Below are positions 10,452-23,234 of a stretch of 64,000 nt of DNA, in pieces (positions within the stretch are counted from its first letter, which is position 1; each line of letters opens with the position of its first letter). A model generated the notes under the pieces. It did no database searches, had not been told where the DNA came from, and was given only the letters and a program-made list of their open reading frames with translations. The translations under genes were made by a program, and so were the position numbers. The DNA is taken from NCBI GenBank assembly GCA_963745035.1, contig CAVUVW010000019.1, positions 32,001-96,000 of the forward strand, given 5' to 3'. Source of the DNA: an uncultured delta proteobacterium. Its GTDB lineage: Bacteria > Desulfobacterota > Binatia > UBA9968.

Positions 10452-11073
10452 CTACCGCTCGACGCGCGCGACGCTGCGCTCCAACGGTAAGGGTTTTTCG
10501 AGAGACAGCACCAGAATCTTGCTGACCTTGCCTTTGCCGATGTTATTGCCGTGATCATCGTACTTGCTCTCTTCGCTGTCGAAGTCGTTATCGTTGGCCA
10601 CTGCGGCTGTAATTGTATGGCGTCTCGTCGATCTCTTTCAGGTTCGGCAGCCCGGTTACCGGCTTGCCGGACTGACCGACGATCGGTATGGCGTCGACGA
10701 TTCGGATAGCGCTATTCTCCAGTTTGACTCGGACGATCGCCGGATTGAACTCGGGCACCCAGAACGTGCGGCGGTTCCGGCCATCGACGCGGATCTGACC
10801 ATTGGGACCGCGGTCGGTGATCATCCAGAACTCGCCGGGCGCGTCGCTTGCGCCGCGCCACAGGTCGCTGCCCACGGAGCCCAATAGAACTTTGCGGTCG
10901 TTGCTCACGCTGCCGGCTATTTTCCCGTTTTGAAATTCCCGGATCGGCACCGACGGGAACTGGTAAACGGCTTCGACCTTGGCTTGCGCCTCGAGATCAG
11001 TGGGCATGGAGAGCGATGCCAAGGCGAGGCTCGCTAAAAGAACCAAGCCGGTTGTTGTTTTCGCAGAAGCCAC
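10452..11073 (-). pseudogene. Esterase-like-activity-of-phytase family gene with an internal deletion and frameshift
   Basis: The N-terminal part (signal peptide, ITDRGPNG) joins out of frame near 10605 to a C-terminal AVANDNDF...LERSVARVER* segment; the central part of the family is missing. Confidence 0.75.
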
Positions 11074-11121
11074 TTACACCTCCAAAGCTGGTTGATGGAT
11101 TAGAGAGGTTACGCGCAAATT

Positions 11122-11160
11122 TTTACCGGCGGATGAAGAAAAGTTTAAGCCATGATTACA
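11122..11160 (-). promoter_or_regulatory. Pho-box-like site upstream of the phytase-like gene
   Basis: Minus strand TGTAAT-n5-CTTAAA-n5-CTTCAT-n5-GGTAAA: four hexamers at 11-bp spacing. Confidence 0.55.
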
Positions 11161-11225
11161 AATGCCCCGGCAAAACCGGTATTCAGACTGGAAAGTCCGG
11201 GCTTTTGCCTCTATACCAGGGCAAT

Positions 11226-12845
11226 ATGTCGAACGCTTCTAAAGAGCGCCCGCCGCCGTCGCGCAAGAAGCTTGGCGTGGTTGCACTGCTTTACTTCATT
11301 CAAGGCGCGCCGGCGGCGATTTTGTGGGAAGTATTGCCGGTTTATTTTCGCATCAACGGGGTGTCGCTGCGCGCCATCGGCGGACTGCGGTTGCTCGAGC
11401 TGCCATACTCATTGAAGGTCTTCTGGTCGCCGCTGGTGCACCGCTTCGGCGACCGGCGTCTCTGGATCACGGCGTGCATGTTCGGCATCGCCGCGGTGCT
11501 CTTCGCCTTGCCGTTCGCCGATGTCGCGAGCGTCGGCGTGATCGTGCTCGTCTTGATTCTTGCGCTGACCACGCTGTCGGCGACTCAGGACATCGCCATC
11601 GATTCCTATTCCGTCGGCTTGATCAATCGCGACGAAGAAGGCGCGGCCAACGGCGTGCGCGCCTCGGCCTATCGCGTCGCGCTGGTGCTCACCGGCGGCG
11701 GGCTGGTGTTTCTCGCCGCGGTGCTGGCTTGGAATGCCTTGTTCATGCTCGCCGGCGGCGTTTTCGCGCTGCTCGGTATCGCCGCGCTCGCGATTCCGCG
11801 GCTGAATTTGCCGGAGGAGGCGCGCACGCACTGGTGGCAGGGCTTTGCCGGCTGGGCCGGCACCTGGCAGGTCGTGCCGTTGATCGCCTTCGTGCTCACT
11901 TACAAGCTCGGCGAATTCGCCATCGGGCCGATGGTCAAACCTTTCTGGGTCGATTACGGCAAGTCGATCTGGCCGGCGCAGGACGACTTGATGTTTCAGA
12001 TCGGCCTTTTTCCGACGACCTTCGGCATCATCCTCAGCATCGCCGGCGCGCTCGCCGGCGGCGCGTTCATCTCGCGTTACGGGATTTTTCACGGCGTGTG
12101 GTTCCTGGGCTTGCTGCAAGCGGTATCGAACATCAGCTATTCGTTGGTCGAGTGGCTCGATCTCGGCCGCTACGGCCTGTACGGCGCATCGATGTTCGAA
12201 TCGCTGAGCGGCGGCCTCGGCACGGCGGCGTTTCTCGCGTTTCTCATGAACGTTTGCGACAAAGAGCACGCCACCGTCCAGTATGCGTTTCTCTCGTCGG
12301 TCTTTTCTCTCACCGGCCGCTTGATCGGCGGCATCAGCGGATTGGGCGCGGAAAAATACGGCTACGGCGATTACTTCGCGATCACGTTCTTGCTCTCGAT
12401 GCCGGCTTATTTGCTCTTGCCCTGGGTGAAGCAGTGGATTCACGAGGAAGGAGACGGTGGGGAAGAGAGAAGAGGCCGAGAAGAGGAGACAAGAGAGAGA
12501 AGGAGACAAGGAGAAGGGGAGATGAGGAGACCGGGGCGGCGGCTACTTGGCGCTGGGCTTGGTCCTAGCGAGCTGCCGCAGCAGGCGGCGCCAGCTCTTG
12601 AGCTCGCGCTCGGGGCGCACCCACTTCGCGGCGCGCGCGCAGCGGCGCTTCAGGGCACGATAGAACTTCGGATCGGTTTCGGCGCGCCGCAGCAAAGCGC
12701 AAAGTTTTTTTGTGTCGCCGACTGGAAAATAGCCGGGGAAATCTTTTCCCAACGTTCCGATCAGGCCGGCGATGCGGCTCGCGATCACCGGCACGCCGCT
12801 GGCCAACGCTTCGGACAACACGTTGGAGCTGCCTTCCATCTTTGA
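11226..12845 (+). CDS. AmpG-like MFS transporter (true end probably near 12450-12525)
   Basis: LYFIQG, PYSLKVFWSPLV, SATQDIAIDSY, YKLGE, ATVQYAFLSS motifs. The ORF reads on through a purine-rich repeat and about 300 nt into senB on the opposite strand. Confidence 0.8.
   Translation: MSNASKERPPPSRKKLGVVALLYFIQGAPAAILWEVLPVYFRINGVSLRAIGGLRLLELPYSLKVFWSPLVHRFGDRRLWITACMFGIAAVLFALPFADVASVGVIVLVLILALTTLSATQDIAIDSYSVGLINRDEEGAANGVRASAYRVALVLTGGGLVFLAAVLAWNALFMLAGGVFALLGIAALAIPRLNLPEEARTHWWQGFAGWAGTWQVVPLIAFVLTYKLGEFAIGPMVKPFWVDYGKSIWPAQDDLMFQIGLFPTTFGIILSIAGALAGGAFISRYGIFHGVWFLGLLQAVSNISYSLVEWLDLGRYGLYGASMFESLSGGLGTAAFLAFLMNVCDKEHATVQYAFLSSVFSLTGRLIGGISGLGAEKYGYGDYFAITFLLSMPAYLLLPWVKQWIHEEGDGGEERRGREEETRERRRQGEGEMRRPGRRLLGAGLGPSELPQQAAPALELALGAHPLRGARAAALQGTIELRIGFGAPQQSAKFFCVADWKIAGEIFSQRSDQAGDAARDHRHAAGQRFGQHVGAAFHL
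12450..12532 (+). repeat. Purine-rich GGAGAC/AAGAGA low-complexity repeat
   Basis: Repeated ggagacaag/gagaag units between convergent genes. Confidence 0.6.
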
Positions 12846-13514
12846 TGTGATGCAAGCCAGTTGGCTCTGCGCCAGCAGCCGGCGGGTGCGCCGGTGCGAT
12901 AGCTGGCCGAGCGCGCGGTAGCGCGGGTTGCGCGCGGCTTCGGCTTGGATTTTGCGCGCGAGCTTTTCGTCCAAAGCGAGGCCGATATGAATGAGCTCGA
13001 TGCGTGAATCGGCCGGTAAACGGCGCGCGGCGAGCGGCGCGCGCAGCGGGTCTTTTTCCGCGCGCAGATGCGCGATCAGACATACTCGGAAAGTTTCGTG
13101 GCGCGCGGCAGGAGCGGCGCCGACGCCGTCGGCGGACTGATAAATCACTTGAGTTTTTCGATGAAACCGCCTCGGCAACTCTCGCAAAGCCATGCGTTGA
13201 AGCACGACCAGGCGGCTCGCAAGCTCAAGCGATTGTTTAGCTTGGGCGCTGCGCCGGATATCGCGGTAAAGGTCGGTTCCGGTGAGCACGACGATCAGCG
13301 GCAGGTCGGGATGCAGCTCGTGGAAGCGGCGGATCGACGCAGCGCTGCGGCGGGCGTGGAGCGCGATCAACACGTCGCAGCGCCGCTCATCGTAAGTTTG
13401 CGTAACTCGCACCCGATGACCGAGCTTTTTGAGCAGCGCGGACCAGCGCAGCGCGGTGATGCGGTTGCCGTTGTTGATGCGCAACGGCGCGGGGGTGACG
13501 AGCTGGATATTCAC
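12543..13514 (-). CDS. senB: Selenosugar synthase SenB-like glycosyltransferase (TIGR04348 type)
   Basis: LVTPA...NNGNRITALRW, IALHARRS, VLTGTDLYRD, HLRAEKDP, SKMEGSSNVLSEA, YPGYF-like motifs; lies directly downstream of an EgtB-like gene. Confidence 0.9.
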   Translation of the reverse strand: MNIQLVTPAPLRINNGNRITALRWSALLKKLGHRVRVTQTYDERRCDVLIALHARRSAASIRRFHELHPDLPLIVVLTGTDLYRDIRRSAQAKQSLELASRLVVLQRMALRELPRRFHRKTQVIYQSADGVGAAPAARHETFRVCLIAHLRAEKDPLRAPLAARRLPADSRIELIHIGLALDEKLARKIQAEAARNPRYRALGQLSHRRTRRLLAQSQLACITSKMEGSSNVLSEALASGVPVIASRIAGLIGTLGKDFPGYFPVGDTKKLCALLRRAETDPKFYRALKRRCARAAKWVRPERELKSWRRLLRQLARTKPSAK

Positions 13515-13523
13515 GTTGTTCGG

Positions 13524-14942
13524 CTAGCGGGCGCAGGTGCGAAAGCCTGCCCAAACATCGCGCCGGTCCGGCGTGTAGAAGTTTCTCCAGGTGTTGCGAA
13601 TCAGCAGCGATGAAGTCGCCCAACAGCCGCCGCGTAAAACTTTATGCGTGCCGAACCACGGTTGAGAGTATTCCTTGTAAGGATCCGCGCTAAAGTCCGG
13701 ATAAGGTTGAAATTCGCTTGCCGTCCATTCCCACACATTCCCGAGCATTTGGCGGCAGCCGAAAGCGCTATCGCCGGCGGCATGAGCGCCAACCTCGACC
13801 AGACCGCCGGCGCGCCAATCCAGATTGGCGCAGTCGGGAGTCGCGTTTTGGTCGCCCCAGGGGAAGAGCCGGCGTGAATCGTTGCGGGCGCCGGCGTCGG
13901 GATCAGACGAAGCGGCAACCTCCCATTCCGCTTCGGTGGGAAGCCTGCGGCCGGACCAATTACAATATGCCTCTGCTTCATACCAGCTCACGTGAACGAT
14001 GGGCAGGTTTTCATTGAGCGGAACATACTGGTCATAAACGCGTTGAAGCCAGCGGCCGTTTGCTGCGCGCTTCCAATAAATCGGATGGTCGAGGCTTTCG
14101 GTGAATTCCTGTATTACGGGGGCTTCGTTCATCCCGCGCTTGAAGAACTTGGCGAAGGATTTTTCCAACTGCGGCGAGCCGCCGGATTCGAGCCACTGCC
14201 AACCCTCGTCGCTCCAGAAGCGGCGCTCGCGGTAGCCGCCTGCTTCGACGAATTCGAGAAACTCGCCGTTGGTTACCGGCGCGCGGGCGATGCGAAAAGG
14301 TTTGAGCATGACCTCGTGTGCCCATTTCTCGTTGTCGAAGACGAAGGGGAAAGCCTTGGTCGCGCCGATCAAGTATTTGCCGCCGGGGATCTCGGCATCA
14401 CCGGAACGGCCACCGCCGTCGACGGCGACCGCCCGCCCGCCTTGGACGACCGGCGCCGGATAGCCGAGCGTCTGGCGCGTGTAGGCCAGCGCTTCGGCAT
14501 GCATGGCCTCATGAAAAGACGTGAGCCAATAAAAATAAAACTCGTCGGCCGAGAGTCGCTCGGATCGTTCGAGACGACCAATGCACCGCTCGATGACTTC
14601 ATTCATGTAGCTGAGGGTTTGCTCACGGCTGGGCAACAAGAGCTCCCAGCGCGTATCATGGGCCACGTCGGTTGAATTATAGATTCGGTCGCCGTCTTCG
14701 AGCAGCGGCTTTTCCTTGCGCAGGTGGCGCAGGGCCCAGAACTCCTGCGTCCACGCCACATGGCCGATTTCCCAGAGCGGCGGATTGACGATCGCCAGGC
14801 GCGGTCCGATCATTTGCCGGTCATCGAGATCTTGCACCAGCGCCAGTGTGCGCGCGCGAAACTCGCGCATGGCTGCGATCAATGGACGCACGCCCATGGT
14901 AGCGAAGGGATCGAAGGTTTCACTGGAAATCATCGTCGGCAA
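13524..14942 (-). CDS. senA: Selenoneine synthase SenA-like (EgtB family, DinB + FGE domains)
   Basis: IVNPPLWEIGHVAW, HEAMHAE iron motif, FVFDNEKWAH, RLPTEAEWE, GNVWEW, RNFYTPDRRDVWAGFRTC; adjacent to senB. The start may be ATG 14933. Confidence 0.88.
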   Translation of the reverse strand: MPTMISSETFDPFATMGVRPLIAAMREFRARTLALVQDLDDRQMIGPRLAIVNPPLWEIGHVAWTQEFWALRHLRKEKPLLEDGDRIYNSTDVAHDTRWELLLPSREQTLSYMNEVIERCIGRLERSERLSADEFYFYWLTSFHEAMHAEALAYTRQTLGYPAPVVQGGRAVAVDGGGRSGDAEIPGGKYLIGATKAFPFVFDNEKWAHEVMLKPFRIARAPVTNGEFLEFVEAGGYRERRFWSDEGWQWLESGGSPQLEKSFAKFFKRGMNEAPVIQEFTESLDHPIYWKRAANGRWLQRVYDQYVPLNENLPIVHVSWYEAEAYCNWSGRRLPTEAEWEVAASSDPDAGARNDSRRLFPWGDQNATPDCANLDWRAGGLVEVGAHAAGDSAFGCRQMLGNVWEWTASEFQPYPDFSADPYKEYSQPWFGTHKVLRGGCWATSSLLIRNTWRNFYTPDRRDVWAGFRTCAR

Positions 14943-14985
14943 TCTGAACCCTGCTCTCTGACCGAGCCCTCTTCTCCCAGGCTCG

Positions 14986-15828
14986 CTAGCTCTTCAAAAA
15001 CGGCACGCCCAGGCGCATCAGGTCGTCGAAGGCGTCCCAATGGACCATGTGCTTGCAGCCGTTCACGATGTGAAGATTGATCTGCGGTTGCTGTTTTTTG
15101 AGCAATTCGGCGCGTTCACCGGCGTGTGCGCGGTCTTCGCGGCCGAAGATCATCAACAGCGGCATCTTCAGTTCAGTGAGCCTATCATATAGCGGCTTGG
15201 ACGCTTTTGCGCCGCCCGCGGGGGCTTCGTGATTCTGGCGTTCCTGGTGAGCTTTGAAATTACGGCCGATCATGCGGCTGTGGCGCACGGCCACGTCCTC
15301 TTCGGAAATCAAGGAATGATTGAACGTGTCCGCCTGCAAGAGTTTTCGGGCATCCTCCAAGGTCGGCTCCTTTTGCGCCATCTCCTTGTCGACGCGCGCC
15401 TGTACCGCTTCGTACCTGCCGACTTGCTCTTCGGTCTGCAGCGGCAGCAGCGAGCCGGTGCCGAGGATCATGACGTGCGAATACCGGCCGGGGTCTTCCA
15501 ATGCGAGCTGAACCGCAAAGCCGCCGGAGCGTGAATGCGCGATCAGCGCGGTCTTGCCCAGGTCCGCGGCATCGATGAACTTCGGGATGGAATTGCGTTG
15601 CTGCGGCACGCTTTGCTTCTCGGGTATGTCGGAGAGGCCAAAACCGGGAAGGTCAAAGGCAGCCGCGCGAAATCCGGCCTTGGCAAAAGGACCGAGATTG
15701 CGCAGAAACACGTCCGCGGAACTCCCGAGAGACGCACCGTGCAGAAAAAGTACCGATGGTCCTGAGCCTGCTTCGATATACCGAAGCTTCAGTCCGTCGA
15801 CTTCGACGAATTTGTCTTGATAAGCCAT
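14986..15828 (-). CDS. Alpha/beta hydrolase
   Basis: LFLHG, DLPGFGLS, AHSRSGG nucleophile elbow, C-terminal KHMVHWD. Confidence 0.85.
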   Translation of the reverse strand: MAYQDKFVEVDGLKLRYIEAGSGPSVLFLHGASLGSSADVFLRNLGPFAKAGFRAAAFDLPGFGLSDIPEKQSVPQQRNSIPKFIDAADLGKTALIAHSRSGGFAVQLALEDPGRYSHVMILGTGSLLPLQTEEQVGRYEAVQARVDKEMAQKEPTLEDARKLLQADTFNHSLISEEDVAVRHSRMIGRNFKAHQERQNHEAPAGGAKASKPLYDRLTELKMPLLMIFGREDRAHAGERAELLKKQQPQINLHIVNGCKHMVHWDAFDDLMRLGVPFLKS

Positions 15829-16067
15829 TACGTCCTCCTTGTGTCCTCGTTGGGGTTAAGTTTCGTGCAGCCTTGCTGCGTCAAGCATTGCTCTTTCCGA
15901 CGGTTCGTCATTCCGCGCGCGTTTGAAGGAAGCTCATCACAAGCGCCTGGACCTCTCCCAAGAGAATTAACGTTAAGACCCGATACAATATTCGGGTTGG
16001 CGCCGATTACGTCCTCGCCGTTTTCATCATCATCTAACGCAAATCGAACGGCATCACAACGCGGCGT

Positions 16068-17207
16068 TCAGGAAACCACCCATTGGCGCAGCTTTTTCAG
16101 CCACGGCTCGAGCTCTTTTGCCCAAGCTTGGGTTCGATGGGCCTCGATGTACTCGATTGCGGCGCGCGTTTTCTGCCGCTCACGGGCCGCCGGCGCGCGC
16201 TTTTCCCGGGTTTTTTTCGCTTCGCGATCCGCTTCGCAGAAATGTCGAATCGCGCGCCAATGGGGCAAGGTCTCGGCGCCGAAACGCTCGCCGATAATCC
16301 TCGTCCAACTCTTTTCGGCACGGTAAGCGCGCGGCGTGCGCGCATAATCGAAACAAGTGGCCAAGGGAATCAGGCTCAAGCACGGCTGCAGCATCGGATT
16401 GCTCAGATAGCCGTGAACGTACTTGCACAGATTCGGATCGCGTCCTTGGAGCGGTCCGATGTGGAGCTCGTCGCGCATCGACAAATCGTTCACCGGGTAG
16501 TTGTCCCAGAGAAGCAGCGGGCGCTCGAGGATTCCCGCGATGCGCCGCGCGTGCGCGAGCGAAATGCGCTCACAGACCACCGTTGGTCCGGTCCAAAAGC
16601 ATGGGGCATCGTCGGGGAGGTGGCGCGCCAGCGTCTCCAGAAAGCGCGGCTCGAAGCGGCCGAAGACCCGTTCGAGCAGCGTATCCTCGCTGTAGCGAGA
16701 AGGGCAAATCCACCATCGAACATCTCTCCAGCTCGCCGGCTGTGCCGCGATGATGCGCGCGAGCCACAAGGCTTCCGCCGCGGCCAGGCTGTCGTTGAAA
16801 TGATTGCGGTCCATCGAGTGAATCAAACGCGAGGGGATGTCGTCGAAAAGCACGGCAAAAGTTTTTACGCCGGCATCGTAGAACGATTGCGCTTTTTGCA
16901 GCAGGATGCGAATCGGCTTCTCTTCCGAAAACCGCAGTCCTTCGCCTGGATGAAAGCCGTAGACGAATTCGATCCGCCTTTTCTGCGCGCTTTGAATGAG
17001 TTGCAGCAGTTTTTTCCATGCCGGCCGCGGGTAGGGACGGCGCCAGAGCCGGCGATGGTACGGATCGTCCTTGGGGGCGTAAAGATACGTGTTCATGCCA
17101 CGCGCGGCGCCCAGCTCGAAGAGCGCTCGGCGCTGCGCCATCGACCAGGGCGCGCCGAAGAATCCTTCGACCACGCCGCGATATTCGAATGCGCCCGGCG
17201 TTCTCAT
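16068..17207 (-). CDS. GH84 beta-N-acetylglucosaminidase (O-GlcNAcase-like), no signal peptide
   Basis: GVVEGFFG, YLYAPKDDPYHR, FAVLFDDI catalytic Asp-Asp, FWTG, LWDNYPVND, NPM motifs. Confidence 0.9.
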   Translation of the reverse strand: MRTPGAFEYRGVVEGFFGAPWSMAQRRALFELGAARGMNTYLYAPKDDPYHRRLWRRPYPRPAWKKLLQLIQSAQKRRIEFVYGFHPGEGLRFSEEKPIRILLQKAQSFYDAGVKTFAVLFDDIPSRLIHSMDRNHFNDSLAAAEALWLARIIAAQPASWRDVRWWICPSRYSEDTLLERVFGRFEPRFLETLARHLPDDAPCFWTGPTVVCERISLAHARRIAGILERPLLLWDNYPVNDLSMRDELHIGPLQGRDPNLCKYVHGYLSNPMLQPCLSLIPLATCFDYARTPRAYRAEKSWTRIIGERFGAETLPHWRAIRHFCEADREAKKTREKRAPAARERQKTRAAIEYIEAHRTQAWAKELEPWLKKLRQWVVS

Positions 17208-17295
17208 TGAAATTCGAATCTCGCATGCCGCGCTTGTTGGAACAAGCTTGCTTGCCAAGGCCGATGTCATTGCGTAGGATCGAGCGAACATTTTT

Positions 17296-18099
17296 ATGAT
17301 GCGAGAGACGATCGTCATGATTTCCGTGTTCGGCGTCTGGCTCATGGCGGCGCTGAGCGCCGGCGCGCAAGTCAAAGAGCCGGATGACATGGTGCGCGTT
17401 CCCGGCGGAGCATTCTCGATGGGACGCAATGACGGTCCGGCGGACGAGCGGCCGCAGCACACCGTCCGTCTCGCGGAGTTTTTCATCGATCGAACCAAAG
17501 TCAGCAACGCCGCTTTTGCGATTTTTCTCAATGTCGTTGGCGCGCGCGGCCCGCGCGGCGAAAAGTACTACGACATCGACGACAACGACGCGCGGGTGCG
17601 CCGGCGCGACGGCAAGTGGCAGGCCGATGCCGGTCACGAGCGCCACCCGGTGGTCGAGGCGTCATGGGACGGCGCGCGCGCTTATTGCGCGTGGATCGGC
17701 AAGCGCTTGCCGACGGAAGCGGAATGGGAGCAGGCGGCGCGCGGCGCTGACGGGCGGAAGTATCCATGGGGCAATGAGGCGCCCGATAAATCGCGGGCGC
17801 ACTTCGGCGCCGGTTGGAACGATTTGCGCCCGGTGGGAAGCCTTCCGAAAGGCGCGTCGCCGTACGGCGCGCTCGATATGGCCGGCAACGGTTGGGAATG
17901 GGTGAGCAGTCTTTACCGGCCCTATCCCTACGATGCGCACGACGGACGCGAGGATCCGGCGGCGGATCAGCCGCGCGGCACGAGAGGCGGCGGGCATGAT
18001 TCGCCCGCCGAGGATTTGACCGTGACGCAGCGCGGCCGGCATGTGTCGCGCAACCCGCGCGGCGGGCACCACAACATCAGCTTTCGCTGCGCCCGCTGA
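17296..18099 (+). CDS. Secreted FGE-sulfatase (SUMF1) domain protein
   Basis: Signal peptide; FSMG, ERPQH, KRLPTEAEWEQAARG, YPWG, DMAGNGWEW, ISFRCAR. Confidence 0.9.
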   Translation: MMRETIVMISVFGVWLMAALSAGAQVKEPDDMVRVPGGAFSMGRNDGPADERPQHTVRLAEFFIDRTKVSNAAFAIFLNVVGARGPRGEKYYDIDDNDARVRRRDGKWQADAGHERHPVVEASWDGARAYCAWIGKRLPTEAEWEQAARGADGRKYPWGNEAPDKSRAHFGAGWNDLRPVGSLPKGASPYGALDMAGNGWEWVSSLYRPYPYDAHDGREDPAADQPRGTRGGGHDSPAEDLTVTQRGRHVSRNPRGGHHNISFRCAR

Positions 18100-18115
18100 C
18101 TAGCTTTTCGGTTTC

Positions 18116-18760
18116 ATGTCGCTTTATCTTTTACTGCAAGGCGTGCTGATGGGGTTGGTCGTCGCCGTGCCGGTGGGGCCGCTCGGATTGCTCTGCATCA
18201 ATCGCGCATTGATGATGGGGCCGACCCACGGGCTGTTCTCCGGTCTCGGCGTCGCCACCGCGGATGCGCTCGCCGCCGGCATCGCCGCTCTCGGCATTAC
18301 CCTGATATCGAGCTTCCTGAGCGCGCACCAAGTGCTTCTGCGCTTGATCGGCGGCGCGTTTCTCTGCTATCTCGGCTACGCGATCTACACTGCCGAGCCG
18401 GCTGCGCAGACGGCGATCAAGAACATCAACGGCTTGCTCGGCTGTTATGTGACGACTTTATTTCTGACCTTCTCCAATCCGGTGACGATTCTCTCCTTCG
18501 TCGCCATCTACGCCGGCTGGCATGTGCCGAGCCTGGACGGGCACTATGCGGCGGCGGCGACGTTGACCGCCGGCGTATTCACGGGTTCGGCGCTGTGGTG
18601 GGTCGGCTTGTTCCTCGGCCTGACGACATTTCGCGAGCGCTTCAACCTGCGTTTTCTTTTCTGGGTCCATCGGGCCTCGGGCGTGATCATCGCCGTGTTC
18701 GGCGTCATCGTGCTCTTGAGTCTCTCGCCTTGGGGCCAGGCGTTGGGGTTGAAACTTTGA
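18116..18760 (+). CDS. LysE-family exporter
   Basis: AVPVGP, GLGVATAD, TFSNPVTILSF, GSALWW motifs. Confidence 0.9.
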   Translation: MSLYLLLQGVLMGLVVAVPVGPLGLLCINRALMMGPTHGLFSGLGVATADALAAGIAALGITLISSFLSAHQVLLRLIGGAFLCYLGYAIYTAEPAAQTAIKNINGLLGCYVTTLFLTFSNPVTILSFVAIYAGWHVPSLDGHYAAAATLTAGVFTGSALWWVGLFLGLTTFRERFNLRFLFWVHRASGVIIAVFGVIVLLSLSPWGQALGLKL

Positions 18761-19734
18761 GCGCGCGGCCCGACTCACTGGTTCACGGCGATCGCGGCAG
18801 GGGCATTCCCGCCGGTCTCAATCTCTGTCTGGCCGGTTTCTACGTCGCGCTCAATGTGTATCAATTCATTTTCCTGCCGCTGCAGCTTTTGCCGGTAAGC
18901 CTGGCCTGGGGCTGGACCTTGCTTCCGGCGGCGCTCCTGACCAACCCGTACTGGAGCCTGATTCACGAGGCGATTCACGACCTGTTCCATCCCAACCGGA
19001 ACGTCAATGGATTTTTCGGGCGGTTGTTGTCGATCCTGTTTGGCGCGCCGTTTCGGATTCTCCGCACCAGCCATCTGGTCCACCATAAGCTCAATCGCCT
19101 GCCCGTCGAGGGGACGGAATACTACGACCGCGCTACCGGCACCAAGGCGCGCGCCGCGCCGGGATATTATTCTCAGATTTTTTTCGGGCTCTATCTCGCC
19201 GAGGCGCTGAGCCCGCTCTATTTTCTTTTGCCCAGGAGCGCGCTGGTGCGGCTGCAGAAGCGGCTGCTGAAGCCGGGCAGCGTGAGCGCCATCCTGATGG
19301 AGAATTGGCTCGGCGCCGCGGCGCTGCGCGAGATTCGCTTCGACGGCTGCCTGGCGATTTTGTGGTTGGCGCTTGCGCTAGCGTGCTACGGCGAACATTG
19401 GCCGCTGCTGGCGGCGCTCTGGCTCGCGCGGGCGTTTCTGATTTCCTTTCTCGACAACGTCTATCACTACGCCACCCCGGTGGGCGATCTGTTCTACGCG
19501 CGCAATCTCTCGCTGCCCGGTGCGTGCGCGAAGCTGCTGCTCCATTTCAACCTGCACGGCGTGCACCACGTCAACCCGGCGATCCCGTGGCGCGATCTGC
19601 CGCGCGCCTTCGACGCGCAGGCGGGAAGATACGAGGGCGATTATTTTGCCGCCGCGCTGCGCCAACTGCGCGGCCCGATCGCGCTCCAGGATCTGCCCGA
19701 AGGCTCGCCTTCGGTTCGCGTGCGGCCGTTCTAG
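18757..19734 (+). CDS. Membrane fatty-acid desaturase family protein
   Basis: His boxes HEAIH, HLVHH, HGVHH..PAIPW; the TTG start overlaps the LysE stop codon. Confidence 0.85.
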   Translation: MSARPDSLVHGDRGRGIPAGLNLCLAGFYVALNVYQFIFLPLQLLPVSLAWGWTLLPAALLTNPYWSLIHEAIHDLFHPNRNVNGFFGRLLSILFGAPFRILRTSHLVHHKLNRLPVEGTEYYDRATGTKARAAPGYYSQIFFGLYLAEALSPLYFLLPRSALVRLQKRLLKPGSVSAILMENWLGAAALREIRFDGCLAILWLALALACYGEHWPLLAALWLARAFLISFLDNVYHYATPVGDLFYARNLSLPGACAKLLLHFNLHGVHHVNPAIPWRDLPRAFDAQAGRYEGDYFAAALRQLRGPIALQDLPEGSPSVRVRPF

Positions 19735-19794: not shown

Positions 19795-20832
19795 TCATCC
19801 GTCAGGATTGCTTTTTTTAAAGAGCAGGACGGAAAACCACCGGTTGGCGTCGGTCAGGTGGCGCACCGGCGCGAGGCCGAAAAAACCGAGTTGCTCCTGC
19901 AAGCGCTCGGGGTCGAATTTGCGGCTGATCTCCACGAGAATTTTTTCGTCCCGCTGCCAGTGAAAGGCGCGATGCAGCTCGGCGAAGCGGACTTCGTGGG
20001 TCTCGTTGGCGACGGCGTACATTTCGATCTGCTGCCAGTCGCCGTTGTAGCGCGAGTGGTAGCGCATCTTGGCGAGATCGAAATTGCTTCCGAGCAGGCG
20101 ATTGATGTTGGCAAAGACGTTGAGAATGAATTCGGCGGTGACGCCGCGGCTGTCGTTGTAGGCGGCCTCCAGGATTTCCGCCGGCTTGATCCGGTCGACG
20201 CCGAGCAGGAGATAGTCGCGCGGTCCCATGGCCGCCGACAAGGCGCGGAAGAAGCGCGGCAAGTCGCTGTGGTTGAAGTTGCCGATGGTGCTGCCGAGAA
20301 ATACGAACAAGGTCGGCAGGTCCGGATCGATGGCTGCGATTGCTTCTTCGTAACGCGCATGCATGCCGTGAAATTCGATGCGCGGGAAGGCCGCGCGAAC
20401 CGCGTCGCGCGAGGCGAGCAGACCGGCGCGGCTCACGTCGATGGGCGTAAAAATGCTCGGACCGCGCTGGCGCTCCTGCTCGGTCAGAAGATGAACGGTC
20501 TTCTTGCTGAAGCCCGCGCCCAATTCGGCGACACAGCGCACCGGCGCGGCACCGATGATCTCGGCGGCATGCGCTTCGAGAAGCGCGTCTTCGGTGCGCG
20601 TCAGATAGTACTCCGGCAGCGCGCAGATCTGCTCGAAAAGCTCCGAGCCGCGCTGATCGTAGAGGTGGTAGGCTTCGAGCCAGCGCGGCTGGTCCCAGAG
20701 CGTGGACAGAATCGACAGGGACGGCACCGAGTCCATCTCCGCGCCGCGGCGCGCCCAGATGCCGGACTGGGGGGCGGTCCAATTGATGCGCTCGCCCGGG
20801 GCAAAGATCGATGTCGCGGCCGGTTGTGTCAT
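19795..20832 (-). CDS. egtD: L-histidine N-alpha-methyltransferase (EgtD family)
   Basis: LYDQRGSELFEQICALPEYYLTRTE, ELGAG, FLGSTIGNF, AYNDSRGVTAEF, IEM, EISRKF. Confidence 0.9.
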   Translation of the reverse strand: MTQPAATSIFAPGERINWTAPQSGIWARRGAEMDSVPSLSILSTLWDQPRWLEAYHLYDQRGSELFEQICALPEYYLTRTEDALLEAHAAEIIGAAPVRCVAELGAGFSKKTVHLLTEQERQRGPSIFTPIDVSRAGLLASRDAVRAAFPRIEFHGMHARYEEAIAAIDPDLPTLFVFLGSTIGNFNHSDLPRFFRALSAAMGPRDYLLLGVDRIKPAEILEAAYNDSRGVTAEFILNVFANINRLLGSNFDLAKMRYHSRYNGDWQQIEMYAVANETHEVRFAELHRAFHWQRDEKILVEISRKFDPERLQEQLGFFGLAPVRHLTDANRWFSVLLFKKSNPDG

Positions 20833-20892
20833 CGGTAGAGAGACTATAAAAGAAAAGGGCCCGGCTTTCGACCCGCGCCGGAAATATTTCCC

Positions 20893-21660
20893 ATGAGCAA
20901 CGACGAGATCGCCGTCGAGTTTCGCGACGTGAGCTTCATTGTCCCCGGCGGCAAGAAGCTCCTCGCTCATCTCGATTTGACGGTACGCCGCGGCGAGACT
21001 CTGGTCTTGCTCGGGCGCAGCGGCTCGGGCAAGACCACGACGATGAAGTTGATCAACCGCCTGATCGATCCGACGGAAGGCGAAGTTCGGATCGAGGGCC
21101 GGGCCAGCGTGGAGTGGGACCCGATCCGGCTGCGCCGGCGCATCGGCTACGTGATCCAGGAAATCGGTCTGTTTCCGCACTTGACAGTGGCGGAGAATAT
21201 CGGCGTCGTGCCGCGGCTCGAAGGCTGGCCGCCGGAGCGCATCCGCGAGCGCGCGCGGGCGCTGCTCCAGATGGTCGGTCTCGATGCCGACCGCTTCGCC
21301 GAACGCATGCCGCGGGAATTGTCCGGCGGCCAGCGCCAGCGCGTCGGCGTGGCGCGCGCGCTCGCGGCGGACCCGCCGTTTATTTTGCTCGACGAGCCCT
21401 TCGGCGCCCTCGATCCGATCACGCGCCGCGAGATTCAACGCGAGTTCCAAACCCTCCAGCGCGAGCTGGGCAAGACGATGATCTTCGTCACCCATGACAT
21501 CGCCGAGGCGTTTCTGCTCGCCAACCGGATCGCGCTGCTCCAGGACGGCGCAATGGTTCTGCTCGGCCCGCCGGAAGATTTGCTGCGCTCGGCGCATCCC
21601 GAAGCGCGCGCCTTCGCCGAGGGTTTTCGCGGCGCGCAAAATTCTCCGAGCGGCGCATGA
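20893..21660 (+). CDS. Betaine/ergothioneine-type ABC transporter ATPase (OpuCA/EgtV-like)
   Basis: GRSGSGKTT, LRRRIGYVIQEIGLFPH, LSGGQRQR, DEPFGALDPITR. Confidence 0.92.
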   Translation: MSNDEIAVEFRDVSFIVPGGKKLLAHLDLTVRRGETLVLLGRSGSGKTTTMKLINRLIDPTEGEVRIEGRASVEWDPIRLRRRIGYVIQEIGLFPHLTVAENIGVVPRLEGWPPERIRERARALLQMVGLDADRFAERMPRELSGGQRQRVGVARALAADPPFILLDEPFGALDPITRREIQREFQTLQRELGKTMIFVTHDIAEAFLLANRIALLQDGAMVLLGPPEDLLRSAHPEARAFAEGFRGAQNSPSGA

Positions 21661-23234
21661 CGATCGGCGAATTTCTCGTGCGCCACGGTGGCGAGCTCCT
21701 GGGCCTCACTTTCGAACATTTGCTGCTCGTGCTGGTGTCGACGGGTCTGGCGATCCTCATCGGCGTTCCCCTCGGCATCGTGCTCACCCGCCGGCCTGCG
21801 CTCAGCAAGCCGGTGCTCGGCTTCGCCAACATCATGCAAACCGTGCCGAGCCTGGCGCTGTTCGGCTTTTTGATCCCGCTCAATATTTATTTGTTCAACG
21901 TAAAGATTCTCGGCGGCATCGGCGCGCGCACGGCGATCGTCGCGCTGGTGCTCTACGCGCTGCTGCCGATCATTCGCAATACGTTCATTGGCATCAGCTC
22001 GGTCGATCCGGCGATTCGCGACGCCGGACGCGGCATGGGCATGACCGATCGCCAACTGCTGTTTCAGGTGGAGCTGCCGCTCGCGCTCGGCGTGATCATC
22101 GCCGGAGTGCGCGTCGCGACGGTAATTTGCGTCGGCACGGCGACCATCGCGGCGGCGATCGACGCCGGGGGGCTGGGCCGCTACATTTTTCGCGGTCTGC
22201 GGGCCAACGACAATCTGCTCATCCTCGCCGGCGCACTGCCCGCGGCGCTGATCGCCCTGGGCGCGGACCTCGGTCTGGGCTACGTCGAGCGCACCATGCA
22301 ATTCGCCGGCGCGCGCAAGAGCCGACCAAAAACTTTTCTGTGGCCGAGCCTTGCCGGCGCCCTGGCGCTGCTCGCCGCGGGTTATTTCTTTATCGGTCAC
22401 GGCGGCAGCCGGATTGCCGTCGGCTCCAAGGATTTCAGCGAGCAGGTGATCCTCGGAGAGCTGCTCGCCCAGGCGATCGAAGCGGAGACCGGCTTGGCGG
22501 TGGAGCGGCGCTTCGACCTCGGCGGAAATTTGGCCCATGAGGCGCTCGTCGCCGGAGAAATCGATCTCTATCCGGAATACACCGGAACCGCGCTGCTGGC
22601 GATCTTGAAAAGCCGGCCGCTCAAGGATCCGCAGGAGGTTTACCGCGTGGTGGCGCAAGAGTACGCCAAACGCTTCGATCTCGTCTGGACCGAGCCGTTC
22701 GGGTTCAACAACACCTTCGCGATTTTGGTGCGCGGCGACGATGCGCGCCGGCTCAATCTAAAAACCATCAGCGACGCGGCGCGCGTCTCGGCGCAGTGGC
22801 GCGCCGGCTTCGGCCAGGATTTCATGTCGCGGGCCGACGGCTATCCGGGCTTTGCGAAGACCTACGGCTTTCACTTTCAGGAAATCCGCGAGATGGACCT
22901 TTCGCTCACCTATCGCGCGCTCGCGGAAAAGCAAGTCGATCTGATCGCGGGCAATTCCACCGACGGTTTGATCGCGCGCTACGGTCTGGTGCAGTTGGAA
23001 GACGACCGCAAGTATTTCCCGCCCTACGACGCCGTGCCGGTGGCGCGCCGGGCAACGCTGGAAAAATATCCGAAAACGCGGGCGGTGTTGCAACGGCTCG
23101 GCGGCATCCTCACGGTCGAGGAGATGCGCAAGCTCAACTACGCCGTCGACGGCGAGAAGCGCCAGCCCAAGGACGTGGCCCAGCAGTTCTTGCTGGAGAA
23201 GCGCATCCTCGACGGCTCCGGCGCGGCGCGCTGA
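21657..23234 (+). CDS. Fused permease/substrate-binding protein of a betaine/ergothioneine-type ABC importer (EgtU/OpuBC-like)
   Basis: QTVPSLAL, LLPIIRNT permease part fused to a GSKDFSEQ, YPEYTGT, FNNTFA, FPPYDAVP binding domain. Confidence 0.9.
   Translation: MTIGEFLVRHGGELLGLTFEHLLLVLVSTGLAILIGVPLGIVLTRRPALSKPVLGFANIMQTVPSLALFGFLIPLNIYLFNVKILGGIGARTAIVALVLYALLPIIRNTFIGISSVDPAIRDAGRGMGMTDRQLLFQVELPLALGVIIAGVRVATVICVGTATIAAAIDAGGLGRYIFRGLRANDNLLILAGALPAALIALGADLGLGYVERTMQFAGARKSRPKTFLWPSLAGALALLAAGYFFIGHGGSRIAVGSKDFSEQVILGELLAQAIEAETGLAVERRFDLGGNLAHEALVAGEIDLYPEYTGTALLAILKSRPLKDPQEVYRVVAQEYAKRFDLVWTEPFGFNNTFAILVRGDDARRLNLKTISDAARVSAQWRAGFGQDFMSRADGYPGFAKTYGFHFQEIREMDLSLTYRALAEKQVDLIAGNSTDGLIARYGLVQLEDDRKYFPPYDAVPVARRATLEKYPKTRAVLQRLGGILTVEEMRKLNYAVDGEKRQPKDVAQQFLLEKRILDGSGAAR

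What the first reader, a model, noticed from the sequence alone, without database searches (positions are those of the whole stretch)
16068..17207. Cytoplasmic O-GlcNAcase (GH84) beside a selenosugar synthase
Seen: a single-domain GH84 with intact FDD catalytic residues and no signal peptide, on the same strand as and about 1.1 kb upstream of senA. Established: SenB can use UDP-GlcNAc to form 1-seleno-beta-GlcNAc, and GH84 enzymes cleave beta-GlcNAc linkages. Inference: it may be a seleno- or thio-glycosidase that recycles or limits the selenosugar pool. I am not aware of that role having been described.
Basis: inference. Interest (0 to 1): 0.75.

Follow-up and report, generated by a model that had tools for sequence, protein, structure and literature searches.

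The report
GlcNAc-cleaving enzyme in selenoneine operon
A cytoplasmic sugar-cleaving enzyme of the O-GlcNAcase family heads the selenoneine (selenium antioxidant) gene cluster in one order of soil bacteria, which suggests an untested enzymatic step that removes the sugar handle from the selenium compound.

Summary
Window 16068-17207 on the minus strand encodes a 379-aa GH84 beta-N-acetylglucosaminidase. It has the Asp-Asp catalytic pair (D122, D123) and no room for a signal peptide. It lies 1.1 kb upstream of senA and senB on the same strand, with an alpha/beta hydrolase gene in between.

- **Within the window's order (named Candidatus Binatia by sources):** a distinct monophyletic GH84 clade is present in 103 of 123 genomes. 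In 85 of the 98 genomes that hold both genes, it sits upstream of senB on the same contig and strand, at most about 4.3 kb away. The flanking genes differ between families.
- **Exceptions:** there are three clear unlinkings in genomes and four more on metagenome contigs.
- **Outside the order:** 0 of 63 senB loci from other phyla and 0 of 8 from other Binatia families carry a GH84. 0 of 47 non-clade GH84 loci carry sen genes.

This is a lineage-specific accessory, not a general pathway part. The clade has Phe where 96% of other GH84s have the aglycone-contacting Tyr (human OGA Tyr69).

My best reading (confidence about 0.4) is a Se-glycosidase that frees selenoneine from the reduced shunt product hercynyl-SeGlcNAc. 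No activity has been tested. I found no paper that links GH84 to selenoneine.

The parts
16068..17207 (-). GH84 beta-N-acetylglucosaminidase, 379 aa, cytoplasmic. Catalytic pair D122/D123. Member of the clade linked to the sen genes.
   Evidence: PF07555 E 2.4e-81. 5DIY E 4.6e-68. Model pLDDT 95.6, TM 0.85 to 5DIY. Clade monophyly support 1.0.
14986..15828 (-). Alpha/beta-fold hydrolase, 280 aa, related to the HsaD/BphD type, with a strong Shine-Dalgarno sequence. A variable member of the cluster.
   Evidence: PF00561 E 3.6e-18. The best NCBIfam matches are all below their cut-offs. Present in 6 of 20 related loci, all in family f1. AAGGAGG lies before the ATG.
13524..14942 (-). SenA, selenoneine synthase (DinB_2 plus FGE-sulfatase domains).
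   Evidence: NF041186, 490.8 bits against a cut-off of 420. Pfam.
12543..13514 (-). SenB, selenosugar synthase (GT4 Se-glycosyltransferase).
   Evidence: TIGR04348, 404.5 bits against a cut-off of 300.
17296..18099 (+). FGE-sulfatase-domain protein with a hydrophobic N-terminus, transcribed divergently from GH84. Conserved next to GH84 in families f1 and f3.
   Evidence: PF03781 E 1.7e-51. N-terminal hydrophobic stretch. Adjacent to GH84 in 7 of 20 loci.
18116..18760 (+). LysE-family exporter. Candidate betaine or amino-acid exporter (inference).
   Evidence: PF01810 E 1.5e-18. Travels with GH84 in f1.
18760..19734 (+). Fatty-acid-desaturase-like membrane protein. The start is approximate.
   Evidence: PF00487 E 7.3e-20. 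Relatives match from query residue about 56-71 onward.
19795..20832 (-). EgtD, histidine trimethyltransferase (hercynine synthase). Start at 20736 or 20832.
   Evidence: TIGR03438, 290.8 bits at G000:C19:51822-52712. PF10017 E 2.5e-90. Translation.
20893..23234 (+). Betaine-type ABC transporter: ProV-like ATPase (20893..21660) and a permease fused to an OpuAC-type binding domain (21657..23234). It has the same architecture that I recall for the ergothioneine importer EgtUV.
   Evidence: Pfam. NCBIfam TIGR01186, 276.9 bits, below its cut-off. The EgtUV comparison is recalled, not tested.
11265..12425 (+). AmpG-like MFS transporter, convergent with senB. The open frame runs on to 12845, antisense to the 3' end of senB.
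   Evidence: TIGR00901, 242.8 bits against a cut-off of 350. The only AmpG-like match in the genome.

Best explanation
In this order of Binatia, a distinct GH84 clade has been recruited as an accessory enzyme of selenoneine biosynthesis and is probably co-transcribed with senA and senB.

Shown:
- It is an intact, cytoplasmic GH84 with the full substrate-assisted catalytic set.
- It forms its own clade.
- That clade, and only that clade, sits next to sen genes.

Inferred:
- It acts as a Se-glycosidase.
- SenB makes 1-seleno-beta-GlcNAc, and SenA joins it to hercynine as a selenoxide.
- In a thiol-rich cytoplasm, part of that selenoxide is reduced to the stable hercynyl-SeGlcNAc selenoether instead of eliminating spontaneously.
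- The GH84 then uses the sugar's 2-acetamido group as nucleophile to expel the very good selenolate/selone leaving group, giving selenoneine plus GlcNAc.
- This would rescue a dead end, much as EgtC/EgtE finish ergothioneine.
For: **Identity.** PF07555 E 2.4e-81. D122/D123 and K46, Y172, W234, N236, D241 and N270 are invariant. The fold matches TtOGA 5DIY with TM 0.85.

**Separate clade.**
- In 1.84 billion representatives, one full-length 50%-identity cluster scores 471 bits. The next full-length hit scores 269 bits.
- FastTree support is 1.0, the stem is 0.67 substitutions per site, and no outsider falls among the 22 tips.

**Linkage within the order (123 genomes, including G000).**
- GH84 is in 103 genomes, SenB in 109, both in 98.
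- In 85 of those 98, the genes share contig and strand, GH84 is upstream, and the gap is at most about 4.3 kb (I cross-tabulated by hand).
- Without the 4 unpublished genomes the figure is 82 of 94.
- Of the 13 split cases, 3 are contig breaks inside the cluster.

**Only the GH84-sen block is shared.** Flanks differ between families: f1 has FGE-LysE-desaturase and AmpG-like genes; f2 has RND efflux, an amidohydrolase and an aminotransferase; f3 has a hydantoinase and RND efflux. In f2, the GH84 and SenA matches lie 2-200 bp apart.

**Metagenome contigs.** 15 of 19 clade loci with at least 1.5 kb of downstream sequence have senA or senB downstream. 0 of 47 non-clade GH84 loci have sen genes.

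**Pathway context in the window.** egtD and a betaine-type ABC transporter lie within 6 kb. selD, with an in-frame TGA, is elsewhere in the genome.

**Chemistry.**
- The selenoether is a documented SenA shunt product with DTT (bioRxiv 10.1101/2022.04.13.486033, passages).
- SenB prefers UDP-GlcNAc (PMC10891094, passages).
[quoted passage not shown] I saw only the reference entry.

**Active-site face.**
- F17 is invariant in 22 of 22 clade members, where 96% of 142 other GH84s have Tyr.
- That Tyr (hOGA Tyr69) stacks on the substrate peptide and may hydrogen-bond the catalytic Asp175. Y69F keeps activity (PMC3476531, section and table).
Against: - No enzymology was or could be done.
- The link is confined to one lineage, so it is phylogenetically a single event. 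0 of 63 senB loci from other phyla (786 kb of flanks; 40 loci with at least 2 kb on both sides) and 0 of 8 from other Binatia families have a GH84. No other glycosidase recurs there either. The pathway therefore works without it.
- Unlinked cases exist:
  - G290 and G254 keep both genes apart. In both, GH84 stays with the LysE/desaturase side rather than with senAB.
  - G239 (60% complete) has GH84 alone in a 207-kb contig, and no senB was found.
  - L194, L200, L201 and L189 are further exceptions.
- Where senA has moved away (G047, G113, G206, G291), GH84 stays with senB. That fits a selenosugar-level role as well as it fits mine.
- In the window, a 239-bp spacer with a strong ribosome-binding site separates GH84 from the next gene, so co-transcription here is not shown.
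- The Y-to-F change is mild in hOGA.
Confidence: 0.4

Rival explanations
1. An unrelated housekeeping GlcNAcase, acting on a protein O-GlcNAc, a muropeptide or another GlcNAc conjugate. Its position next to senAB arose once in the ancestor of the order and persists by descent.
For: - All linked genomes are kin from one order.
- No sen locus elsewhere has a GH84.
- GH84 is retained when unlinked from sen (G290, G254) and possibly without senB (G239).
- In f1 and f3 it is just as regularly next to the divergent FGE-LysE-desaturase genes.
- The closest solved relative is a genuine bacterial protein O-GlcNAcase.
- The genome's only AmpG-like transporter is beside senB.
Against: - Flanks on both sides have turned over between families while the GH84-sen block persists.
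- Spacing is tight in f2.
- No GT41 OGT was found in the genome, which is 92.6% complete.
- A NagZ-sized GH3 exists elsewhere.
- The AmpG-like neighbour is seen in only part of f1.
- The clade is sharply separated from all other GH84s and has changed the conserved aglycone-contacting Tyr.
Confidence: 0.3
2. The enzyme hydrolyses free 1-seleno-beta-GlcNAc (or a thio analogue) to GlcNAc plus selenide, so as to limit, proofread or recycle the selenosugar pool.
For: - GH84 directly abuts senB in four genomes (G047, G113, G206, G291). For G047 and G113, senA was located elsewhere in the genome.
- L189 has GH84 2.3 kb from a senB-like gene with no senA in the 20.9-kb locus.
- HSe- is a plausible leaving group (inference).
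Against: It would undo an ATP- and UDP-GlcNAc-consuming product of a co-encoded enzyme, which is a futile cycle (inference). 18 of the 20 loci I fetched have senA between the two genes. These loci were picked among genomes with both genes on one contig.
Confidence: 0.12
3. Sugar salvage. The enzyme processes the sugar by-product of the spontaneous selenoxide elimination (presumably 2-acetamidoglucal, by hydration) back to GlcNAc.
For: The Cope-type elimination is the published route to selenoneine. Glycosidases hydrating glycals is established chemistry (recalled, not checked here).
Against: I recall that N-acetyl glycals are tight inhibitors of hexosaminidases rather than good substrates (not checked). 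The identity of the by-product is my inference, because the figures were not visible. No sequence evidence distinguishes this reading.
Confidence: 0.08

Closest known systems
Thermobaculum terrenum O-GlcNAc hydrolase (TtOGA, PDB 5DIY)
   Same: GH84 TIM barrel with a C-terminal helical bundle. No N-terminal extension before the barrel: chain residue 4 aligns with query residue 7. Asp-Asp pair and GlcNAc-binding residues conserved. Best hit by sequence (E 4.6e-68) and by fold (TM 0.85).
   Different: - The query is shorter: 379 aa against a 474-residue chain.
- Identity is only 31-32% in the fold alignment.
- It has Phe instead of the conserved Tyr (EGFFG against EGFYG).
- No GT41 OGT was found in its genome.
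- It sits in a sen operon rather than alongside an OGT. The TtOGA/OGT pairing is recalled.
Human OGA and Clostridium perfringens NagJ (CpOGA)
   Same: Same family and the same substrate-assisted mechanism residues. A reported ability of OGA to cleave thioglycosides is the precedent for chalcogen-glycoside cleavage. I saw only the title.
   Different: No CBM, FIVAR or pseudo-HAT domains. Clade-specific changes lie on the catalytic face: F17, H86, S170, W165, F286 and others. The substrate is unknown.
Canonical sen cluster senC-senB-senA (Variovorax paradoxus type)
   Same: SenA and SenB score above the NCBIfam cut-offs. egtD is co-localised, as in the 'small subset' noted by the authors.
   Different: The canonical cluster has three genes and needs no sugar-removing enzyme, because the selenoxide eliminates spontaneously. 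Here selD is elsewhere, and a GH84, with or without an alpha/beta hydrolase, precedes senA.
EgtC/EgtE of ergothioneine biosynthesis
   Same: The functional analogy I propose: enzymes that trim the sulfur or selenium donor scaffold off the hercynyl adduct (pathway description).
   Different: Unrelated folds and chemistry (an amidohydrolase and a PLP C-S lyase). This is an analogy only.
NagZ (GH3) with the AmpG muropeptide recycling system
   Same: A cytoplasmic GlcNAcase next to an AmpG-like permease.
   Different: The family is GH84, not GH3. A GH3 candidate exists elsewhere. The AmpG-like score is below its cut-off. The adjacency is limited to part of one family.

Membership tests
GH84 (Pfam PF07555, beta-N-acetylglucosaminidase / O-GlcNAcase family) | Profile match above the curated cut-off | tested here: met
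   273.8 bits against a cut-off of 25, E 2.4e-81, profile positions 1-283 of 295.
GH84 | Adjacent catalytic Asp-Asp pair (polarising residue and general acid/base) | tested here: met
   D122 and D123 are invariant in 38 of 38 and in 164 aligned sequences. They align to the DD of CpOGA.
GH84 | Conserved GlcNAc-binding residues. The hOGA numbering K98, Y219, W278, N280, D285, N313 is recalled. | tested here: met
   K46, Y172, W234, N236, D241 and N270 are conserved across the clade and the outgroup. The mapping to hOGA numbers is by motif and recall.
GH84 | (beta/alpha)8 barrel that superposes on solved GH84 structures | tested here: met
   Model pLDDT 95.6. Foldseek top hits are all GH84: 5DIY at TM 0.85, CpOGA at 0.80.
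GH84 | Beta-N-acetylglucosaminidase activity | not testable with these tools
   Needs an enzyme assay.
NCBIfam NF041654 GlcNAcase (equivalog, 732-position model) | Score above the equivalog cut-off | tested here: not met
   192.6 bits against a cut-off of 1000. Only the catalytic core, model positions 144-423, matches.
Protein O-GlcNAc cycling system (OGA plus OGT) | A GT41 O-GlcNAc transferase in the same genome | tested here: not met
   PF13844 gave no match in G000, which is 92.6% complete. The controls rang in 2 of 14 genomes.
Protein O-GlcNAc cycling system | The peptide-stacking Tyr (hOGA Tyr69) | tested here: inconclusive
   Phe in 22 of 22 clade members, against Tyr in 96% of 142 others. 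hOGA Y69F remains active (PMC3476531).
Selenoneine (sen) biosynthetic gene cluster | SenA and SenB present, adjacent, and above their cut-offs | tested here: met
   NF041186 at 490.8 against 420, TIGR04348 at 404.5 against 300, with a 9-bp gap between the genes.
Selenoneine (sen) biosynthetic gene cluster | SenC/SelD inside the cluster | tested here: not met
   The only strong selD match is on contig C17, with an in-frame TGA.
Selenoneine (sen) biosynthetic gene cluster | GH84 is a recurrent component of sen clusters in general | tested here: not met
   0 of 63 loci from other phyla and 0 of 8 from other Binatia families, by tblastn and by HMM.
Selenoneine (sen) biosynthetic gene cluster | GH84 is syntenic with senB within its own lineage | tested here: met
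   85 of the 98 genomes with both genes. 15 of 19 metagenome loci with at least 1.5 kb downstream.
NagZ/AmpG muropeptide recycling | The GlcNAcase belongs to GH3 | tested here: not met
   The protein is GH84. A separate GH3 lies at G000:C11:317256-318206.

The most novel reading that the evidence does not exclude
This GH84 clade is the first dedicated Se-glycosidase: an enzyme evolved to cleave an anomeric carbon-selenium bond. It would provide an enzymatic last step of selenoneine biosynthesis (hercynyl-SeGlcNAc to selenoneine plus GlcNAc). That step would replace or back up the spontaneous selenoxide elimination assumed for all known sen pathways. It would also let the pathway run productively in a reducing or low-oxygen cytoplasm.
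Probability: 0.35. Interest if true: 0.8.

Novelty: new variant of a known kind. Interest (0 to 1): 0.6.

Why it matters
Selenoneine biosynthesis is currently described as a three-enzyme route whose final C-Se cleavage needs no enzyme. Its in vitro shunt product, hercynyl-SeGlcNAc selenoether, has no known fate.

A GH84 that clears this product would do four things:
- add a fourth, enzymatic step to the pathway;
- define a new substrate class (Se-glycosides) for a family known almost only for protein O-GlcNAc and glycan trimming;
- give a physiological role to at least one group of the 'orphan' cytoplasmic bacterial OGA homologues that lack an OGT;
- offer a practical way to raise selenoneine yields in engineered hosts.

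If it proves unrelated to the pathway, the result is still a clean example of a lineage-restricted, conserved gene neighbourhood that should not be over-read.

Tried and rejected
- **RNA evidence.** Six metatranscriptome runs from 3 studies held small shares of the words (0.06-0.13). I laid four, from 2 studies. They are assembled contigs of 115-411 nt, 95-99% alike, scattered over all four genes. One 411-nt contig bridges the senB/senA junction. None bridges GH84 to the hydrolase gene. Contigs from RNA libraries show neither transcription nor operon structure, so I draw no conclusion.
- **Promoter and terminator scan of 12000-17600.** Nothing above shuffle expectation, and no minus-strand terminator-like site between GH84 and the hydrolase gene. 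Uninformative.
- **Phyletic co-loss.** 9 of 123 order genomes lack both genes, including both genomes of genus g106 (81% and 95% complete). The genes are adjacent, so one deletion or one missing contig removes both. I do not count this as independent support. Of the 11 'SenB only' genomes, 9 have a contig that ends inside senA or the hydrolase gene.
- **Class-level co-occurrence outside the order.** GH84 of any kind is in 37 of 174 genomes and SenB in 8 of 174. Three have both, on different contigs. No association.
- **Contexts of distant GH84s.** G021 has PEMT-like and OYE-type neighbours. The nearest sister-group locus, L171, shows no sen gene. Uninformative.
- **Functional analogue in other sen clusters.** I clustered the ORFs of the 63 loci. 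Only SenC-like (11 loci), an ABC ATPase (10 loci) and lineage-specific housekeeping genes recur. No glycosidase appears.
- **Specificity-position analysis.** Coordinates of the model are not available to scripts. I could place clade-specific residues only by strand and loop topology, not by distance to the active site.
- **align_proteins** failed on stop codons at hit edges. I corrected the coordinates and dropped L062 from alignment A1.
Full report
**1. What is at the coordinates**

The feature is real and lies on the minus strand.
- Window 17207 to 16068 encodes 379 aa, beginning MRTPGAFEYRGVVEGFFG.
- Pfam PF07555 (GH84 NAGidase) matches residues 10-310 at E 2.4e-81.
- The NCBIfam 'GlcNAcase' equivalog, built on 732-residue enzymes, matches only the core and stays far below its cut-off: 192.6 against 1000.
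- phmmer against PDB sequences puts Thermobaculum terrenum O-GlcNAc hydrolase (5DIY) first at E 4.6e-68. Clostridium perfringens NagJ, Bacteroides BT_4395, human OGA and Oceanicola OGA follow.
- An AlphaFold2 model built on a 38-sequence alignment has mean pLDDT 95.6. It shows eight strands alternating with helices plus a C-terminal helical bundle at 297-378.
- Foldseek returns only GH84 structures at the top, with 5DIY at TM 0.85.
K46, Y172, W234, N236, D241 and N270 are conserved across 164 aligned GH84s.
- The barrel starts at residue 9, so there is no signal peptide. Gene callers give 376-388 aa for the relatives.

**2. The neighbourhood in the window**

Downstream on the same strand:
- an alpha/beta-fold hydrolase, 14986..15828;
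- SenA, 13524..14942 (NF041186, 490.8 bits against a cut-off of 420);
- SenB, 12543..13514 (TIGR04348, 404.5 bits against a cut-off of 300).

Gaps are 239 bp from GH84 to the hydrolase, with AAGGAGG before the hydrolase ATG. They are 43 bp from the hydrolase to senA and 9 bp from senA to senB.

Upstream and divergent:
- an FGE-sulfatase-domain protein with a hydrophobic N-terminus;
- a LysE-family exporter;
- a desaturase-like membrane protein.

Further on:
- egtD on the minus strand, about 19795..20736 or 20832;
- divergent from egtD, a betaine-type ABC transporter whose permease is fused to an OpuAC binding domain.

Convergent with senB is the genome's only AmpG-like MFS transporter.

Elsewhere in the genome:
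- selD, with an in-frame TGA, is on another contig.
- No GT41 O-GlcNAc transferase was found. The genome is 92.6% complete.
- One NagZ-sized GH3 lies elsewhere.

**3. A clade of its own**

The 120 best hits in the 5.8-billion-protein collection are 62-73% identical and about 380 aa long. Where named, they are called Candidatus Binatia.

Among 1.84 billion 50%-identity representatives, one full-length cluster scores 471 bits (55% identity). The next full-length protein scores only 269 bits (36%).

I built a FastTree of the following sequences:
- 22 clade sequences: the window, 20 genome loci and P0126;
- 142 other representatives of at least 330 aa. I dropped shorter fragments from the 150 listed.

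The clade is monophyletic with support 1.0. Its stem is 0.67 substitutions per site, and no outsider falls inside.

**4. The co-occurrence test**

(a) Class sample, 201 genomes including G000.
- Orthologues of 54-64% identity are confined to the window's order, families f1-f3: 25 of 26 genomes besides G000.
- SenB scores above its cut-off in 25 of the same 26.
- Outside the order, 37 of 174 genomes have some GH84 at 31-40% identity, and 8 of 174 have SenB.
- Three genomes have both, on different contigs.
- I fetched the eight sen loci from outside the order. None has a GH84 in the flanks.

(b) Whole order, 123 genomes including G000.
- The GH84 orthologue is in 103 genomes: 54 of the 58 that are at least 90% complete and at most 5% contaminated.
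- SenB is in 109 genomes: 56 of those 58.
- By hand cross-tabulation: both in 98, GH84 only in 5, SenB only in 11, neither in 9.
- In 85 of the 98, the two genes share contig and strand, GH84 is upstream, and the gap is at most about 4.3 kb.
- Four genomes are flagged unpublished (G260, G278, G241, G244). Without them the figures are 82 of 94.

(c) Checks on the misfits.
- G251, G286 and G273 are contig breaks inside the cluster.
- G298 shows GH84, the hydrolase and the start of senA, and then the contig ends.
- 9 of the 11 'SenB only' genomes have contigs that end inside senA or the hydrolase gene.
- G236 and G272 have 2.1-2.3 kb upstream of senA without GH84.
- Real unlinkings:
  - G290: 4.4 kb upstream of hydrolase-senA-senB holds other genes, and GH84 is on another contig with LysE and the desaturase.
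  - G254: 9.3 kb upstream of senA holds no GH84, which sits on another contig with FGE-LysE-desaturase.
  - G239: GH84 is alone in a 207-kb contig between a MacB-type ABC system and a DUF4143 ATPase. No senB was found, and the genome is 60% complete.

(d) Gene order in 20 loci that I chose among genomes with both genes on one contig.
- 18 of 20 read GH84, then sometimes other genes, then senA, then senB.
- The hydrolase is present in 6 of 20, all in f1. It lies between GH84 and senA in five and upstream of GH84 in one.
- Two g3 genomes add a VOC/glyoxalase-fold protein and an NMT1-like binding protein.
- In the nine f2 loci, the GH84 and SenA matches lie 2-200 bp apart.
- In f3 (G047, G113, and G206) and in f1 genus g104 (G291), GH84 directly abuts senB with gaps of 141-342 bp.
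- For G047 and G113, senA was located elsewhere in the genome.
- Flanks differ between families.

(e) SenB-centred scan of one genome per species.
- Of the 80 best loci, 11 carry a GH84. All 11 are among the 17 best SenB matches, whose titles read Binatia, 'delta proteobacterium' and the like.
- Of the other six among those 17, five begin inside senA or the hydrolase gene, and one is G290.
- The remaining 63 loci have none, by tblastn at E 1e-5 and by an HMM at E 1e-3.
- Their titles include Acidobacteriota, Terriglobia, Blastocatellia, Latescibacterota, Poribacteria, Planctomycetota, Gemmatimonadota, Alpha- and Betaproteobacteria, Dehalococcoidia, Bacillota and others.
- 48 of the 63 have SenA in the locus, 40 have at least 2 kb on both sides, and the flanks total 786 kb.
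- No other glycosidase recurs in those 63 loci.

(f) GH84-centred scan of metagenome contigs, seeded with the sister group.
- Of 80 loci, 33 belong to the clade (at least 55% identity to the window protein).
- Of the 19 clade loci with at least 1.5 kb downstream, 15 have senA or senB downstream.
- The four exceptions:
  - L194: the hydrolase follows, then 2.3 kb without sen genes.
  - L200 and L201: a DDE transposase is upstream, and no sen gene lies within 8-10 kb.
  - L189: a senB-like gene lies 2.3 kb away on the other strand, next to an ArsR-rhodanese fusion.
- None of the 47 non-clade GH84 loci has a sen gene.

**5. Reading the synteny**

The association is strong, specific to one GH84 clade, and survives turnover of the surrounding genes and relocation of senA. 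That is how functionally coupled genes behave. But it is one lineage, hence one evolutionary origin. It is absent from every other sen cluster examined, and it breaks in a minority of genomes without loss of GH84. So the enzyme is not required for selenoneine synthesis in general. At most it is a lineage-specific improvement.

**6. Mechanism**

What the preprint on the sen pathway says (bioRxiv 10.1101/2022.04.13.486033, passages only):
- SenB makes SeGlcNAc.
- SenA couples it to hercynine as a selenoxide.
- The selenoether was detected in reactions containing DTT.
- The thio analogue stalls as the sulfoxide.

SenB prefers UDP-GlcNAc (PMC10891094, passages).

A beta-GlcNAc attached through selenium to an excellent leaving group is what a substrate-assisted GH84 could cleave. 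[quoted passage not shown] I saw only its reference entry.

I therefore favour hydrolysis of the selenoether to selenoneine plus GlcNAc. This is inference.

One sequence feature is in keeping with it:
- Position 17 is Phe in 22 of 22 clade members, where 96% of 142 other GH84s have Tyr.
- In human OGA this Tyr69 stacks on the substrate's peptide bonds and may hydrogen-bond the acid/base Asp175.
- Y69F keeps activity with slightly higher Km (PMC3476531, section 8 and Table 1).
- Other clade-specific positions sit on strand ends and loops of the catalytic face, judged by topology only: H86, S126, W165/W166, S170, D175, L242, L272/L273, F286.

The rival readings are set out in their own sections: free-selenosugar hydrolase, by-product salvage, and unrelated GlcNAcase.

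**7. Literature**

- No paper in the searchable library holds 'selenoneine' with 'GH84'.
- None holds 'SenB', 'selenosugar' and 'glycoside hydrolase' together.
- The one paper holding 'selenoneine' with 'acetylglucosaminidase' is a fungal genomics review (listing only).
- The 2026 survey of genes co-encoded with NHISS enzymes (PMC13674229) has no occurrence of 'glycosid', 'GlcNAc' or 'hydrolase' in its main text.
- The ovoselenol preprint has none of 'selenoether', 'glycosid' or 'hydrolase'.
Supplementary Fig. 1 of the 2022 work and the 2026 supplementary tables could list such a gene.
- I did not read the journal version of the 2022 paper.

**8. Verdict**

This is a new variant of a known kind: a sen-linked GH84 clade with a plausible, untested Se-glycosidase role. 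My confidence is about 0.6 in a functional tie to the pathway and about 0.4 in the specific selenoether-cleaving mechanism.

Noticed in passing
window 19795-23234: egtD (hercynine synthase) lies divergent from a ProV-like ATPase and a permease fused to an OpuAC binding domain. I recall this architecture for the ergothioneine importer EgtUV. Together with senAB, it makes the 12.5-23.2 kb stretch look like a hercynine/selenoneine island.
   Followed up: partly
window 10848-12845 (+): The AmpG-like MFS open frame has no stop until 12845. It therefore runs about 300 nt antisense over the 3' end of senB. Its tail gave spurious 'AmpG' tblastn hits on every senB. It is either a real convergent overlap or a frame error. 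It is the only AmpG-like gene found in the genome.
   Followed up: partly
window 17296-19734 (+): The trio of FGE-sulfatase-domain protein, LysE exporter and desaturase-like protein is conserved divergently from GH84 in family f1. The FGE protein is also there in f3. The trio stays with GH84 when the sen genes are unlinked (G254, G290). Its function is unknown.
   Followed up: partly
G000:C17:318816-319742 and four relatives: selD has one in-frame TGA in all 5 genomes searched, presumably a selenocysteine-containing selenophosphate synthetase. It is never inside the sen cluster there.
   Followed up: no
L076 7191-8352; G240:C41:263137-264232; G268:C27:11036-12147: The GH84 orthologue is split into two overlapping pieces in L076 and G240. 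In G268 it carries in-frame TGA stops. senB is intact on the same contig in all three. These are either assembly frameshifts or decaying copies.
   Followed up: no
L189 6687-8370 (-): A senB-like glycosyltransferase (49% identical to SenB) follows an ArsR-rhodanese fusion protein. A clade GH84 lies 2.3 kb away on the other strand, and no senA is in the 20.9-kb locus. This may be a different selenosugar or thiosugar context.
   Followed up: partly
L041 9671-11450; L042: In two genus g3 genomes, a VOC/glyoxalase-fold protein and an NMT1-like binding protein are inserted between GH84 and the BphD/HsaD-like hydrolase. This pairing is reminiscent of ring-cleavage pathways.
   Followed up: no
window 16392-16394 (GH84 residue 272): The window's protein has Met at position 272 (NPML), where 21 of 22 clade members have Leu (NPLL). 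Met is the residue found in 89% of non-clade GH84s.
   Followed up: no
G000:C19:240077-240868 (outside the window): A second EgtB/SenA-like gene on the same contig scores 182 bits on the SenA model, below the cut-off. It may be an EgtB or OvoA-type enzyme.
   Followed up: no
window 8277-10202 (+): A PhoX alkaline phosphatase (PF05787, E 6.2e-165). Its N-terminal region contains 'SRRTALKA', which looks twin-arginine-like by eye. A 38%-identical PhoX also appears near the cluster in L074.
   Followed up: no
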